A stretch of 64,000 bases of DNA from Dictyostelium discoideum. Lineage: Eukaryota. Below, piece by piece: positions 55,544-58,897 of this stretch. The notes below the pieces were generated by a model. That model made no database searches. It was not told the origin of the DNA and was given only the letters and a program-made list of their open reading frames with translations. The stretch covers positions 5,760,001 to 5,824,000 of the forward strand of contig CM000151.3 of NCBI GenBank assembly GCA_000004695.1. Direction: 5' to 3'. The translations under genes were made by a program, and so were the position numbers. The first letter of the stretch is position 1. The number at the start of each line of letters is the position of its first letter.

Positions 55544-58500
55544 ATGACAGAAAAATATAAGGTAAACTTTTTTTATATTTTATTTTTATTTTATATTTTA
55601 AATTATAATTTCAATCTTGTAATTTCAATTTTTCCAACATCATTTTCTCAAATTAATTCAACAAATGGGTTTTTAATATCAGAAGGCAGAAGTTTAATTT
55701 CAATTGCACATGGAGACTTGAACGGTGATGGTAATGATGATTTGATATATGCTATAAATTCAGAAGGACTATATGTATTTTATGGGCCATTAGCAAGTAA
55801 TTTTAATTTTCAAACAGACACATCAAAGATCAACGGTTCAAATGGTTTTATTTTTTTAAATACTGCTGTTCGAATGAATAATATAGCTGTTGGTGATATA
55901 AATAATGATGGGTTTGACGATATTGCTCTTTTTTTATTTATTATACCAGGAAAACTTTGTGTTATCTATGGTACTGATCAAATTATATCACCTTCTACTT
56001 TTTCGACAGTGAATGGTAATAATGGTTTCTATATTTCTCACGTTTCGTCCTCTAATATTGCATTTGGGTTTGTAAGATCAATCATTGATTTCAATGGTGA
56101 CTCAATTAAAGATTTATTTGTAGGTACAGATTTTTTTTATTTTTTTATTTTGTTTTTAAAAGGGGTATTCACATGGGTATTAATACATATTTTTTTTTTT
56201 TTTTTTTTTTTTTAGGTCTCTGCAAGTATAGGAACTTATGTAGGTACAGGAACACCAATTTCATATATGATATTTGGTATAAATGGTGGTAAATTTCAAG
56301 TTAATTCACAATTTGAATTTGACCCTTCAACATTAAATGGGAGTAATGGTTTTTTAATTAATAATTTCAATTCATATGCGGCTTATCCTTATGATATGAA
56401 TAATGATGGGATTGGTGATATAATGATAAATAGGGGACAGATAGCAATCGATATTATTTATGGTAGTAGAGGTCCTTTTACCTCACCATATATCCCAGTT
56501 TATGATGGTGTCAAAGGTACCAGTTTCAGCTTTTTAGGTTGCTCAACAAATAATAATGCTCTTCCAAATGCTTTTGGAGATTTTAATAATGATGGACTAA
56601 ATGATTTTGGTGTAATTTATTCTTTATTATTTTTTGATTATTCTTATTCTTTATTATTCTTTATTGTTATTATACTAATTTTTACATTTTATTAAATAAT
56701 TTTAGATTCCTACAAAACATACTTCGGGTGACTATATAGCTTTTTTGGTTTGGGGTAAAACAGAATATCCACCAACAACAACATTAAGTATAAATCTAAA
56801 TCCATCGGATGGTTTGGTTATAGCAGTTGTTGGCAACATCTATAGCTGGGCTTTATCTCCTAGATTGGGGGATATAAATAATGATGGATTTGCAGATTTT
56901 TTAATCAGTGGTAACACTGACCTCCCATTCACCATTTTGTATGGTAATAATAAAAATTATGCTTCAAATCCAGTTTATTTAAAAGATCAAGTTGGTGATT
57001 GTTCAAAAATGTCAATTAATGGCTATGCTACGGCTATTGATATTGGTGATTATAACTCTGATGGTATTGATGATATTGTAAGTAATATTATATTAAATCA
57101 ATTATTATTATTATTATTATTATTATTATTATTATTATTATTATTATTATTATTATTATTATTATTATTATTATTATTATTATTATTATTATTATTATTA
57201 TTATTATCATTATTATTAACTTTTAAATAATTCTATTCTATCAGACAGCATCTATATTATCAACAGGTTCATATTTAGATATTTATACAATATATGGTCA
57301 AACTTCGATTGGTTCAATTTCAATAATTAGTAAATTATTTCAACCAAATCCAATGTCAAACTCAATTTATAAATTATTTGAAAATAATATTAATTCAGAA
57401 GTTGGACAATGCGCAATTAGAATTGTTACATTAACAATTGAAAATCCAGCAAATGAAGATCAATTTATTATTGATCCTAGTTTCGATAGTTCAATATATT
57501 CAATAACATTTAATAATAATACAAGAGTTAGAATTGAATTAATATTATTTGGTGATGAGAGTAAATCAATTGCAAATGATGTTTTACCAAAAATAACAGT
57601 TTCATTGTCACATCAGCTATTTAATAGAACTATATTAATGAAATATGGTAATCAAGTACAATCAATTAAATTCATTGGTCAACCAAATGCAAATTGTGAT
57701 ACAAAATGTTTAAATGGAGGTACTTGTAATCCATTCACTGGTTGCCAATGTATAAATGATCATTATGGTGATTATTGTGAATTAAAAGATTGTACAGTTC
57801 CACAATGTTTAAATGGTGGTTCATGTAATACTACAGTTGGTGAATGTTCGTGCGCTCAAGGTTATGAAGGTACGGATTGCAGTGGTATTAGTTGTTCAGC
57901 TTCATGTTTAAATGGTGGTTCATGTAATACTACAGTTGGTGAATGTTCATGTCCTCAAGGTTATGAAGGTATAGATTGTAGTGGTATTAGTTGTTCAGTT
58001 TCATGTTTAAATGGTGGTTCATGTAATACTACAGTTGGTGAATGTTCATGTCCTCAAGGTTATGAAGGTGTAGATTGCAGTGGTATTAGTTGTTCAGCTT
58101 CATGTTTAAATGGTGGTTCATGTAATACTACAGTTGGTGAATGTTCATGTCCTCAAGGTTATGAAGGTGTAGATTGCAGTGGTATTAGTTGTTCAGTTTC
58201 ATGTTTAAATGGTGGTTCATGTAATACTACAGTTGGTGAATGTTCATGTATAAATGGCTTTTATGGTGATAATTGTGATACAAAGGATTGTACAGTTCCA
58301 CAATGTTTAAATGGTGGTTCATGTAATACTACAGTTGGTGAATGTTCATGCACTCAAGGTTATGAAGGTATAGATTGTAGTGGTATTAGTTGTTCAGTTT
58401 CATGTTTAAATGGTGGTTCATGTAATACAACAGTTGGTCAGTGTCAATGTATAAATGACTTTTATGGTGATAATTGTGGTACAAAGGATTGTACAGTTCC

Positions 58501-58897
58501 ACAATGTTCAAATGGTGGTTCATGTAATACTACAGTTGGTGAATGTTCATGCACTCAAGGTTATGAAGGTATAGATTGTAGTGGTATTAGTTGTTCAGTT
58601 TCATGTTTAAATGGTGGTTTATGTAATACTACAGTTGGTCAATGTCAATGTGTTGAAGATTATGATGGCGATGATTGTGGTTCTGAAAATAAAAAGAAAA
58701 CAAATATTGGTGTTATCATTGGCCCAATTCTAGGTGGTCTTGCACTAATTGCAATTATTGTTGTTGCAATTGTTTTAATTAAAAAGAAGAAGAATGGAAA
58801 TTCAAAAAAAAATACAAATAACATTGAATTAAGACCTCAAGGTTCCACTGTTGATATTCAAATGGGTGGTAGAATTAAAAATCTTGATAAATTTTAA
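55544..58897 (+). CDS. Type I membrane protein with a signal peptide, 7 FG-GAP (integrin-alpha-like beta-propeller) repeats, about 10 tandem EGF-like repeats, a TM helix and a short basic tail. It has four exons, join(55544..56119, 56216..56611, 56706..57077, 57245..58897), about 998 aa.
   Basis: The N-terminus has a hydrophobic leader. The FG-GAP/Ca-binding loops are DLNGDGNDDL, GDINNDGFDD, DFNGDSIKDL, DMNNDGIGDI, DFNNDGLNDF, GDINNDGFADF and GDYNSDGIDD. The donors are GTAGGT, GTAATT and GTAAGT, with T-rich/AG acceptors, and all are phase 0. Intron 3 is a (TTA)n microsatellite. Exon 4 has a repeated unit CLNGGSCNTTVGECSCPQGYEG[VI]DCSGISCS about 10 times, then IGVIIGPILGGLALIAIIVVAIVLI as the TM helix, then KKKKNGNSKK.... 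Confidence 0.75.
57102..57222. repeat. (TTA)n microsatellite, about 40 units, inside intron 3 of the FG-GAP/EGF gene.
   Basis: A perfect (tta)n run with one 'tca' variant. In the track ORF it reads as poly-Leu, which is an artefact of the unspliced ORF. Confidence 0.9.

What the first reader, a model, noticed from the sequence alone, without database searches (positions are those of the whole stretch)
55544..58897. Integrin-alpha-like seven-blade FG-GAP propeller joined to a ~10x EGF array in one type I membrane protein
There are seven DxNxDGxxD Ca-binding FG-GAP loops, which equals one complete beta-propeller. They are followed by almost identical 31-aa EGF modules, then a TM helix and a short Lys-rich tail. 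Dictyostelium lacks canonical integrins. Its known adhesion receptors, the Sib proteins, are beta-like (VWA plus EGF). A protein combining an alpha-like propeller with a beta-like EGF stalk on one chain is an unusual architecture. It is relevant to the origin of integrin-type adhesion. The near-identical EGF units, which differ mainly at V/I and A/V positions, indicate very recent tandem unit duplication or ongoing concerted evolution.
Basis: partly seen in the sequence, partly recalled or inferred. Interest (0 to 1): 0.55.

Follow-up and report, generated by a model that had tools for sequence, protein, structure and literature searches.

The report
Dictyostelium propeller-plus-EGF surface receptor gene
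This is a real four-exon Dictyostelium gene for a membrane protein with a calcium-binding propeller head on a stalk of ten EGF modules; it is an annotated but unstudied family rather than an integrin, and one face of its head changes unusually fast between gene copies.

Summary
Window 55544-58897(+) encodes a 998-aa type I membrane protein: signal peptide, seven FG-GAP blades that each carry a Ca loop, an unclassified ~130-aa probable beta-sandwich, ten six-Cys EGF modules, a TM helix and a Lys-rich tail. The modules are 33-34 aa, not 31.

It is 94% identical to D. discoideum AX4 DDB_G0271042 and 88% to DDB_G0285585, both annotated only as "EGF-like domain-containing protein". I found no functional literature.

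The integrin reading is only partly supported:
- There are no integrin leg domains and no GFFKR motif.
- All seven blades carry Ca loops, not just the last three or four.
- The EGFs are tenascin/teneurin type, not beta-integrin I-EGF.
- Heterostelium and Tieghemostelium homologues keep the same head, TM and C-terminal GGxIxxLDKF tail, but carry a Ser/Thr-rich mucin-like stalk instead of EGFs. The EGF array is therefore a late, interchangeable spacer.

EGF number varies from 4 to 10, and some units are 97-99% identical in DNA.

New here: amino-acid differences between copies concentrate on the propeller face opposite the Ca loops. Propeller dN/dS is about 1-2.3, against 0.1-0.4 for the middle domain and neighbouring genes.

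Best reading: a diversifying Ca-dependent surface recognition or adhesion receptor. The ligand is unknown.

The parts
55544..56119 (+). Exon 1 (aa 1-192): signal peptide (aa 1 to about 29, 55544-55630) and propeller blades with Ca loops at 55715-55741, 55895-55921 and 56087-56113
   Evidence: Gene model. Ca loops. The N-terminal hydrophobic stretch has KD 1.83. The T. lacteum homologue has a typical signal peptide ending just before the conserved FP(T/N)T start.
56120..56215 (+). Intron 1: 96 nt, GTAGGT...TTTTAG, 18% GC, phase 0
   Evidence: The junction peptide KDLF|VSAS is identical in AX4 DDB_G0271042.
56216..56611 (+). Exon 2 (aa 193-324): propeller blades with Ca loops at 56393-56419 and 56579-56605
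56612..56705 (+). Intron 2: 94 nt, GTAATT...TTTTAG, 11% GC
   Evidence: The junction NDFG|I(P/L)TK is conserved in the family.
56706..57077 (+). Exon 3 (aa 325-448): propeller blades with Ca loops at 56871-56897 and 57048-57074. The exon ends one residue after the Ca loop of blade 7.
57078..57244 (+). Intron 3: 167 nt, GTAAGT...TATCAG, 5% GC, holding an (ATT)39 microsatellite at 57101-57218
57245..57310 (+). Start of exon 4 (aa 449-470): the last two strands of propeller blade 7
   Evidence: DSSP strands of the AF2 model
57311..57694 (+). Middle domain (aa 471-598). It has no Pfam family and is probably an Ig-like beta-sandwich. It is conserved within dictyostelids.
57695..58690 (+). Array of ten six-Cys EGF modules (aa 599-930). 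Units start at 57695, 57791, 57893, 57992, 58091, 58190, 58289, 58391, 58490 and 58592. Nine of the ten carry an NTT N-glycosylation sequon.
   Evidence: Pfam EGF_2 x10 and EGF_TEN. TRF period 99, with 201 and 300 higher-order periods. Unit table and DNA identities. Sequons.
58706..58780 (+). Transmembrane helix (aa 936-960), IGVIIGPILGGLALIAIIVVAIVLI, with GxxxGxxxG at aa 937-945
   Evidence: Kyte-Doolittle up to 3.04 and the GxxxG motifs. GVIxGPIxxG is invariant across dictyostelid groups.
58781..58897 (+). Cytoplasmic tail (aa 961-998: KKKKNGNSKK...STVDIQMGGRIKNLDKF) plus the stop codon. The C-terminal motif S..I..GGx[IV]xx[IL]DKF is conserved.
54127..54840 (+). Upstream neighbour: the last exon of a Bax1-I (TMBIM-like) gene. 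It is co-duplicated with the receptor gene at other loci and serves here as an evolutionary-rate control.
   Evidence: Pfam Bax1-I at E 7.7e-19. Synteny in L002 and L003. dN/dS is 0.10-0.20.

Best explanation
The gene encodes a member of a dictyostelid-specific family of type I cell-surface receptors.

**Shown here.**
- The architecture is: signal peptide, a closed seven-blade FG-GAP beta-propeller in which every blade carries a DxNxDGxxD Ca loop, a family-specific ~130-aa probable beta-sandwich, ten tenascin-type EGF modules that nearly all carry an N-glycosylation sequon, a TM helix with GxxxGxxxG, and a 38-aa cytoplasmic tail ending GGRIKNLDKF.
- The head, middle domain, TM and tail are conserved from Heterostelium and Tieghemostelium to D. 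discoideum.
- The stalk is interchangeable. It is Ser/Thr-rich and mucin-like in Heterostelium and Tieghemostelium, and an EGF array in the D. discoideum/purpureum lineage.
- The EGF array changes length (4-10 units) and unit order.
- The gene sits on a roughly 5-6 kb segment, together with a Bax1-I gene at the window, L002 and L003 loci. This segment has been copied to several loci and in tandem.
- Amino-acid differences between copies pile up in the 4-1 and 2-3 loops, on the propeller face opposite the Ca loops. The Ca loops and the long 3-4 loops are almost invariant.

**Inferred.**
- Ca2+ rigidifies the propeller from the conserved face.
- The variable face, which is the ligand-binding face in integrin alpha, binds a ligand that is itself variable. 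Candidates are microbial or prey surfaces, or conspecific cell-surface molecules.
- The glycosylated EGF array is a stiff spacer that sets how far the head projects. It evolves by unequal crossing-over and gene conversion.
- The invariant juxtamembrane/TM motif and the C-terminal DKF motif couple the receptor to a conserved partner, through oligomerisation, sorting or signalling.

The protein is not an integrin alpha subunit.
For: **Gene model and domains.**

**Identity.** 94% to DDB_G0271042 over 100% of the query, and 88% to DDB_G0285585.

**Wider family and stalk swap.**
- H. album P0129 and T. lacteum P0130 have seven Ca loops, no EGF, a 40-aa window that is 65-80% Ser/Thr, the same TM, and an ...IDKF end.
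- The window propeller aligns colinearly with P0130 at 32% identity over 457 columns, 172 bits.
- The middle domain matches P0130 by hhalign at probability 87%.

**EGF dynamics.**

**Duplication.** Window versus L001 aligns only over 54903-59804. Window versus L002 aligns over 53722-59752. L003 carries a tandem pair.

**Rates.**
- Propeller exons are 90.6-95.8% identical to the L002 and L003 copies, while most introns are 95-99%.
- Nei-Gojobori dN/dS for the propeller is 0.65-2.26, and about 1.0-1.35 in seven of ten pairs. The middle domain gives 0.20-0.39.
- Neighbouring genes with similar dS give 0.10-0.20 (Bax1-I) and 0.11 (formin).
- 46% of top-loop sites are variable, against 4% of bottom-loop sites and 19% of strand cores (Fisher p 8e-17).
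- The same pattern holds in a largely independent set of species and copies: 10%, 45% and 35% invariant.
- In the closest pair, the top loops show 20 nonsynonymous and 0 synonymous changes (binomial p 0.0045).
- Top-loop dN is 0.17-0.23 in eight of ten pairs. Non-coding divergence is about 0.01-0.08.
Against: - There is no expression, localisation or binding data, and no ligand is known.
- The selection analysis rests on five DNA sequences. They are a mix of paralogues and one divergent strain, analysed with a counting method.
- I defined the top and bottom classes from the AF2 secondary structure after I had seen the variability pattern.
- dN/dS near 1 in loops is also what relaxed constraint gives.
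- dS is also raised in the top-loop codons. That could reflect patchy gene conversion or a multi-hit artefact.
- I could not place the variable sites on model coordinates. The face assignment comes from blade topology plus the integrin precedent.
- The middle-domain model has low confidence (pLDDT 60).
- Signal peptide, TM helix and glycosylation are inferred from sequence only.
Confidence: 0.55

Rival explanations
1. It is a true but divergent integrin alpha orthologue retained in Dictyostelia. It would pair with a beta-like partner such as a Sib protein and link the substrate to the cytoskeleton.
For: - It has a seven-blade FG-GAP propeller with cation loops, is a type I membrane protein, has a beta-sandwich directly after the propeller where the integrin thigh sits, and has GxxxG in the TM.
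- Integrin alpha chains are among the best fold matches and give the longest alignments.
- It meets the minimal sequence criteria that Kang et al. use for amoebozoan 'ITGA'.
Against: - There is no Integrin_alpha2 leg domain and no GFFKR motif. The tail is unrelated, and Ca loops occur in all seven blades.
- A family profile reaches integrin alpha-V over one blade only, at E 3.5e-5. Bacterial FG-GAP proteins align over most or all of the propeller.
- Kang et al. report no ITGA in Dictyostelium.
- The tail has no NPxY and no known talin or kindlin-binding motif.
- Many T. lacteum paralogues are secreted-type, with no TM helix.
Confidence: 0.08
2. The clustering of differences on one propeller face reflects relaxed constraint on exposed loops, plus patchy gene conversion among paralogues. 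It is not adaptive diversification. The protein would then be a generic adhesion or matrix-binding molecule with a fixed ligand.
For: - Pairwise dN/dS in the top loops is mostly 0.8-1.9, close to neutral, and dS is raised there too.
- Only one pair is individually significant for an excess of nonsynonymous change.
- The family clearly undergoes duplication and conversion.
Against: - The bottom-face loops are equally exposed but are the most conserved part of the domain, with 4% of sites variable. Exposure alone does not explain the pattern.
- Top-loop dN (0.17-0.23 in eight of ten pairs) exceeds intron and flank divergence (0.01-0.08).
- The closest pair shows 20 nonsynonymous and 0 synonymous changes in the top loops.
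- The ORFs, scaffold, middle domain and tail are all under purifying selection.
Confidence: 0.25
3. The propeller head was acquired from bacteria by horizontal transfer in an ancestor of dictyostelids. It was then fused to eukaryotic stalk, TM and tail modules. It would act as a lectin-like binder, as in bacterial and fungal seven-blade propeller lectins.
For: - Outside Dictyostelia, every one of the best 120 hits in two searches is bacterial or metagenomic, at 27-34% identity. They include amoeba-associated bacteria: Holosporaceae 'Namur' and Ca. Jidaibacter.
- No EukProt-sourced (eukaryotic protein collection) sequence other than dictyostelid ones is among them.
- The protein shares the L-[ND]-G-x-N-G-F pre-blade motif and has Ca loops in all blades, as in the bacterial proteins.
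Against: - The bacterial alignments are register-shifting matches between repeats and near-consensus repeats, and they are gappy: 106 bits with 71 gaps, against 172 bits and a colinear alignment for T. lacteum.
- The database is dominated by bacteria.
- The gene has three spliceosomal introns and normal Dictyostelium composition.
- No tree was built.
Confidence: 0.2
4. It is mainly a structural component of the extracellular matrix, slime sheath or spore coat. EGF-rich proteins are common there in Dictyostelium. On this reading it is not a receptor.
For: - It has a long array of glycosylated EGF modules.
- T. lacteum has a dozen secreted-type paralogues with Cys-rich C-termini and no TM helix.
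Against: - The window protein and its orthologues keep a strongly conserved TM helix and a cytoplasmic C-terminal motif across dictyostelid groups. That argues for a membrane-anchored protein with a cytosolic partner.
- The stalk is replaceable by mucin-like sequence, so the EGFs themselves are not the functional core.
Confidence: 0.1

Closest known systems
D. discoideum AX4 DDB_G0271042 and DDB_G0285585, annotated 'EGF-like domain-containing protein' or hypothetical protein
   Same: Same gene family and same exon junctions. They are 94% and 88% identical to the window protein. Both have seven Ca loops, the middle domain, the same TM helix and an identical tail.
   Different: Neither is identical to the window protein, so the window comes from another strain or another copy. 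The EGF arrays differ: the window has three consecutive short CS[AV]SC-headed QGYEG-type units, AX4 DDB_G0271042 has a different order of its ten units, and DDB_G0285585 has eight units. Most amino-acid differences lie in the top-face loops.
Heterostelium album and Tieghemostelium lacteum 'tenascin X' proteins (P0129, P0130 and about 12 more)
   Same: Seven-blade all-Ca propeller that aligns colinearly at 32% identity. The middle domain, the GVIxGPIxxG TM helix and the GGx[IV]xx[IL]DKF C-terminus are shared.
   Different: They have no EGF modules. The stalk is Ser/Thr-rich and mucin-like. Most T. lacteum paralogues lack the TM helix and end in a Cys-rich module.
Metazoan integrin alpha subunits
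   Same: Seven-blade FG-GAP propeller fold with DxDxDGxxD-type hairpin Ca sites. They are type I membrane proteins with a beta-sandwich after the propeller, and they are among the best structural matches.
   Different: The window protein has no thigh or calf (Integrin_alpha2) domains and no GFFKR motif. It has Ca sites in all seven blades rather than the last three or four, and an EGF stalk. No beta partner is known. Sequence similarity is limited to one blade.
Vertebrate CRTAC1 (cartilage acidic protein 1; PDB 9etn)
   Same: An FG-GAP/VCBS-type Ca-binding propeller followed by an EGF-like module. It is a Foldseek match at E 2.1e-8.
   Different: CRTAC1 is known as a secreted protein with a single EGF-like module and a UnbV/ASPIC domain (established knowledge, not tested here). 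The window protein gives no UnbV_ASPIC hit. It has ten EGFs, a TM helix and a tail.
Amoebozoan 'Type II ITGA' of Kang et al., for example Flabellula citata paralog 1 (bioRxiv 10.1101/2020.04.29.069435)
   Same: An FG-GAP propeller with cation motifs and an EGF-like domain C-terminal to the head, in an amoebozoan. Some of these proteins have a signal peptide and a TM helix.
   Different: That paper reports one EGF-like domain, not an array. It also states that Dictyostelium species lack ITGA. The relationship to the dictyostelid family was not tested here.
Bacterial FG-GAP repeat proteins (Nostoc, Flavobacteriia, Holosporaceae; often with RTX, cadherin-like or HYR domains)
   Same: The repeat signature is the same, LxGxNGF...GDINxDGxxD...YVxFG, with a Ca loop in every blade. 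Identity is 27-34% over most of a propeller.
   Different: The bacterial proteins are secreted, often with several propellers and different C-terminal modules. Their alignments to the window protein are gappy and shift in register. They have no EGF stalk and none of the dictyostelid middle domain, TM helix or tail.
Dictyostelium SibA-E (integrin-beta-like adhesion receptors)
   Same: Type I surface proteins of the same organism, built from shuffled adhesion-type domains, with GxxxG in the TM helix (otherwise established knowledge).
   Different: Sib proteins have a VWA domain and talin-binding NPxY tails (established knowledge, not tested here). The window protein has neither.

Membership tests
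Integrin alpha subunit | Seven FG-GAP repeats folding into a seven-blade beta-propeller | tested here: met
Integrin alpha subunit | Ca-binding hairpins confined to the last three or four blades | tested here: not met
   All seven blades carry the motif, in every family member.
Integrin alpha subunit | Thigh, calf-1 and calf-2 leg domains (Pfam Integrin_alpha2, PF08441) | tested here: not met
   No such Pfam hit at E up to 1, or up to 10 for the middle domain scanned alone. One unclassified beta-sandwich-like domain is present instead.
Integrin alpha subunit | Membrane-proximal GFFKR (KxGFFKR) motif in the cytoplasmic tail | tested here: not met
   There is no GFF anywhere in the protein. The tail is KKKKNGNSKK...LDKF.
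Integrin alpha subunit | Obligate heterodimer with a beta subunit | not testable with these tools
   This needs biochemistry. Kang et al. report that Dictyostelium lacks canonical ITGA and ITGB.
Integrin beta stalk (I-EGF) | Eight-cysteine I-EGF modules or integrin-beta EGF Pfam families | tested here: not met
   Each module has six cysteines. Only EGF_2, EGF_TEN, hEGF and EGF score, with a sub-threshold EGF_laminin match. No integrin-beta family appears.
Tenascin/teneurin-type EGF array (Pfam EGF_TEN PF25024, EGF_2 PF07974) | Score above the gathering threshold and six-Cys spacing C-x3-5-C-x4-6-C-x4-8-C-x-C-x6-10-C | tested here: met
   EGF_TEN scores 137.5 bits against a cut-off of 65. EGF_2 scores 112.8 bits against 22.1, in ten stretches. 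The regular expression finds ten units.
Dictyostelid FG-GAP head / DKF-tail receptor family (DDB_G0271042, DDB_G0285585, 'tenascin X' of H. album and T. lacteum) | Seven-blade all-Ca propeller that aligns colinearly, plus the family-specific middle domain | tested here: met
   Identity is 94% and 88% to the AX4 members. Identity to T. lacteum P0130 is 32% in a colinear alignment. Middle-domain profile hits are confined to the family. hhalign to P0130 gives probability 87%.
Dictyostelid FG-GAP head / DKF-tail receptor family (DDB_G0271042, DDB_G0285585, 'tenascin X' of H. album and T. lacteum) | TM helix with GVIxGPIxxG and the C-terminal motif GGx[IV]xx[IL]DKF-COOH | tested here: met
   These columns are invariant in the alignment of five members from three dictyostelid genera.
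CRTAC1 family | UnbV/ASPIC domain together with the FG-GAP/VCBS propeller and an EGF-like module | tested here: not met
   There is no UnbV_ASPIC hit. Only the propeller-plus-EGF outline is shared, and the fold match to 9etn has E 2.1e-8.
Amoebozoan 'Type II ITGA' sensu Kang et al. | Membrane-docked protein with FG-GAP blades, cation motifs and a non-canonical extra domain; placement in their ITGA clade | tested here: inconclusive
   The sequence criteria are met. The authors list Dictyostelium as lacking ITGA, and no phylogeny with their sequences could be made here.

The most novel reading that the evidence does not exclude
The family is a hypervariable, copy-number-variable recognition system of social amoebae. 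One face of a Ca-stiffened propeller diversifies under positive or balancing selection. It would discriminate non-self, meaning bacterial prey, pathogens or other Dictyostelium strains, much as TgrB1/TgrC1 or innate immune receptors do. Stalk length would tune reach, and a conserved DKF tail would signal inside the cell.
Probability: 0.2. Interest if true: 0.8.

Novelty: new variant of a known kind. Interest (0 to 1): 0.45.

Why it matters
Dictyostelium is a main model for adhesion, phagocytosis and self/non-self recognition in a non-animal relative of animals, yet few of its surface receptors are known.

This family has gone unnoticed under labels such as "EGF-like domain-containing protein" and "tenascin X". 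One survey of amoebozoan integrins states that Dictyostelium has no alpha-like protein.

The analysis gives three concrete handles:
- A conserved head/TM/tail cassette with a swappable stalk, either mucin-like or an EGF array. This is a natural experiment on what a receptor stalk is for.
- A propeller with one conserved face and one fast-changing face. This points to where a ligand binds and suggests an arms race or recognition function.
- An invariant cytoplasmic C-terminal motif that can be used to fish for partners.

It also corrects the tempting reading that this chain is an ancestral alpha+beta integrin fusion.

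Tried and rejected
1. A single-sequence search of PDB sequences with the ectodomain gave no meaningful hit. A family profile gave only a one-blade match to integrin alpha-V.
2. The middle domain has no Pfam family. A weak HMMER hit to a bacterial He_PIG/Big_9 repeat protein (E 5e-5) was not confirmed by hhalign (probability 0.2%). 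I do not call it cadherin-like.
4. A homologue search with the last two EGFs, the TM helix and the tail returned nothing. This was probably the word filter acting on low-complexity sequence.
5. I first thought the family was confined to the D. discoideum/purpureum group. Searching with the D. purpureum member overturned this.
6. The first search suggested bacterial origin, with E down to 1e-43. Those scores are sums of many partial, register-shifted repeat alignments. HGT is kept only as a low-confidence rival.
7. I considered reading the L002 versus L003 difference as allelic hypervariability. The neighbouring formin region is also only 93% identical, so that strain is divergent genome-wide. 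I rely on dN/dS with neighbour-gene controls instead.
8. The AFDB fold library was unavailable.
The window's strain was not identified.
10. Literature searches for the two DDB_G identifiers, and for Dictyostelium with FG-GAP, EGF, tenascin or propeller, found no functional study.

Full report
**1. What is in the sequence**

The region is AT-rich with coding islands of 25-38% GC. Four open reading frames on the + strand join through three phase-0 GT..AG introns of 96, 94 and 167 nt with 5-18% GC. The result is a 2997-nt CDS at 55544-58897, encoding 998 aa.

The best database match is D. discoideum AX4 DDB_G0271042 (999 aa, 94% identity over the full length). Next is DDB_G0285585 (932 aa, 88%). 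The peptides across all three junctions match these independent gene models and those of D. citrinum, D. dimigraforme and D. purpureum.

Exon 3 ends one residue after the Ca loop of blade 7, and the remaining strands of that blade lie in exon 4. The propeller can therefore only close if the exons are spliced together. I could not consult RNA data. Only one copy lies in the 64-kb window.

**2. Check of the observation**

- *Pfam* scores FG-GAP (2.8e-12), FG-GAP_3 (4.5e-16), EGF_2 (ten stretches, 8.6e-33) and EGF_TEN (7.3e-40), all above their curated cut-offs.
- *Ca loops.* Seven D-x-N-x-D-G-x-x-D loops lie 59-70 residues apart.
- *Membrane anchor.* A 25-residue TM helix (aa 936-960) is followed by KKKK and a 38-aa tail.
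They fall into two alternating subtypes. Units 3/4/5 and 7/9 are 97-99% identical in DNA, and other pairs are 58-95%.

**3. Fold**

An AlphaFold model of aa 28-700 used the family plus trimmed bacterial propellers as its alignment. It gives the propeller block-mean pLDDT mostly 70-90, with 27 strands.

The fold is a seven-blade propeller. The FG-GAP assignment rests on Pfam.

**4. The family and what it says about the stalk**

The first search suggested a family limited to D. discoideum, citrinum, dimigraforme and purpureum, followed directly by bacterial FG-GAP proteins. Searching with the most divergent member, from D. purpureum, found Heterostelium album and at least 13 Tieghemostelium lacteum proteins labelled "tenascin X".

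All but one of these show seven Ca loops by the motif search; the exception shows six. The window propeller aligns colinearly with T. lacteum P0130 at 32% over 457 columns (172 bits). The middle domain matches it by hhalign at probability 87% and E 4e-6.

H. album P0129 and T. lacteum P0130 share with the window protein:
- the juxtamembrane and TM sequence K..GVIxGPIxxG;
- the C-terminus S..I..GGx[IV]xx[IL]DKF.

Between the middle domain and the membrane, however, they carry a Ser/Thr-rich segment (65-80% Ser/Thr over 40 aa) and no EGF.

The head, TM and tail are therefore ancestral. The EGF array is a replacement stalk in the D. discoideum/purpureum lineage. Within that lineage the array has 4-10 units in different orders. 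Nine of the ten window units carry an NTT sequon.

**5. Is it integrin-like?**

It works like the head of an integrin alpha in fold and Ca-hairpin chemistry, but it fails the membership tests:
- no Integrin_alpha2 legs;
- no GFFKR;
- Ca loops in all blades rather than the last three or four.

A family profile reaches integrin alpha-V over one blade only, at E 3.5e-5. The EGFs are six-Cys tenascin/teneurin type, not integrin-beta I-EGF. The "alpha head on a beta stalk" reading is an analogy only, and the mucin-stalked homologues argue against any ancestral link to integrin beta.

Kang et al. (bioRxiv 10.1101/2020.04.29.069435) state that Dictyostelium lacks ITGA. They describe one amoebozoan "Type II ITGA" with a C-terminal EGF-like domain. 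By their minimal sequence criteria this family would qualify, but I could not test phylogenetic placement.

Bacterial FG-GAP proteins share the repeat signature LxGxNGF...GDINxDGxxD...YVxFG at 27-34% identity. Their high totals are sums of register-shifted partial alignments. Horizontal origin remains a low-confidence rival.

**6. Duplication and rates of change**

- The window aligns to a locus of assembly GCA_054883475.1 (L001) only over 54903-59804, at 95.7% over the main 3.6-kb block.
- It aligns to the DDB_G0285585 locus (L002) over 53722-59752.
- The flanks differ: RNA polymerase subunit, Bax1-I, gene in the window, against formin, Bax1-I, gene in L002.
- Another strain (L003) has two copies in tandem.

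A roughly 5-6 kb segment, which at the window, L002 and L003 loci includes a Bax1-I gene, has therefore been copied around.

Compared with L002 and L003, the propeller exons are 90.6-95.8% identical, while most introns are 95-99%. Nei-Gojobori dN/dS for the propeller is 0.65-2.26, and about 1.0-1.35 in seven of ten pairs. The middle domain gives 0.20-0.39. The co-duplicated Bax1-I exon gives 0.10-0.20 and the formin gives 0.11, at similar dS.

Variable residues recur once or twice per blade. I classed sites using the model's strands:

| Site class | Variable among the five DNA copies | Invariant in the second set of species and copies |
|---|---|---|
| 4-1 and 2-3 loops (face opposite the Ca loops) | 46% | 10% |
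| Ca 1-2 loops and long 3-4 loops | 4% | 45% |
| Strand cores | 19% | 35% |

The Fisher test of top against non-top sites gives p 8e-17. The second set is largely independent of the DNA set.

In the closest pair, the top loops carry 20 nonsynonymous and 0 synonymous changes (p 0.0045). Top-loop dN is 0.17-0.23 in eight of ten pairs and exceeds non-coding divergence of 0.01-0.08.

Caveats:
- There are only five sequences, mixing paralogues with one divergent strain.
- The method is a counting method.
- The partition was chosen after I had seen the pattern.
- dS is also raised in the top loops.
- I had no access to the model coordinates.

Loops alternate between the two faces in any four-stranded blade. 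The variable loops must therefore lie on the face opposite the Ca hairpins. In integrins that is the ligand-binding face (established knowledge: Springer 1997; Xiong et al. 2001).

**7. Interpretation**

The best-supported reading is a Ca-dependent surface recognition or adhesion receptor. It has a diversifying ligand-binding face and a conserved opposite face. An interchangeable stalk of variable length carries the head. The TM and tail are conserved and point to a cytosolic or membrane partner.

The architecture, family relations, stalk swap, duplications and rate pattern are shown here. Ca dependence, surface location, glycosylation, ligand binding on the variable face and signalling through the tail are inferred. 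The ligand is unknown.

Rivals are a divergent true integrin alpha, neutral loop drift plus gene conversion, a bacterial origin with lectin-like function, and a structural matrix role. Each is listed with its test.

**8. Novelty and score**

I found no published study of the family.

The following appear to be undescribed:
- the conserved head/TM/DKF-tail cassette;
- the mucin-to-EGF stalk swap;
- the one-sided hypervariability of the propeller.

I rate it a new variant of a known kind, FG-GAP propeller surface proteins, with moderate interest.

Noticed in passing
window 57101-57218: Intron 3 of the gene is almost entirely a pure (ATT)39 microsatellite at 98% match. It is a likely source of length polymorphism between strains.
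   Followed up: partly
window 54127-54840 (+); L002 6132-7301; L003 6141-7346: A Bax1-I (TMBIM-like) gene sits directly upstream and is co-duplicated with the receptor gene at other loci. It is 97-98.5% identical between copies, with dN/dS 0.10-0.20, unlike the receptor head.
   Followed up: yes
window 60962-61050 (-): A tRNA-Trp (CCA) gene of 89 nt, long enough to contain an intron.
   Followed up: no
window 49296-53651 (+), 62886-63974 (-), 36327-38705 (-): Neighbouring ORFs score as an RNA polymerase largest subunit (Rpb1 domains 1-5), an AIG1-family GTPase and a P4-type phospholipid flippase C-terminal part. Two large ORFs, 40903-44775(-) and 46627-48015(+), have no Pfam match.
   Followed up: partly
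L003 8001-10984 and 11942-15233; proteins P0001, P0011, P0121: One strain assembly has two family genes in tandem. P0001 (1452 aa) looks like two tandem copies merged by a gene caller. P0011 and P0121 look like a degraded copy fused to a short-chain dehydrogenase gene. Copy number therefore varies between strains.
   Followed up: partly
proteins P0124, P0131, P0135, P0137, P0139, P0142, P0144, P0148, P0151 and others (Tieghemostelium lacteum): T. lacteum has about a dozen paralogues with the same seven-Ca-loop propeller but no TM helix. They end in a Cys-rich C-terminal module (...C..C.D..C..NEKC.......C...P[FY]C...). They may be secreted forms of the family.
   Followed up: partly
proteins P0126 (Holosporaceae bacterium 'Namur') and P0211 (Ca. 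Jidaibacter acanthamoeba): Bacteria associated with amoebae encode single seven-blade FG-GAP propellers that rank among the best non-dictyostelid matches. P0126 is 29-33% identical to the window propeller. Whether this reflects gene exchange or only near-consensus repeats is open.
   Followed up: partly
window protein aa 80-100, 142-160, 212-236, 275-292, 340-359, 403-423 (3-4 loops): The long loops on the Ca-loop face of the propeller are more conserved than the beta-strand cores. This suggests a second, conserved interaction surface whose partner is unknown.
   Followed up: partly
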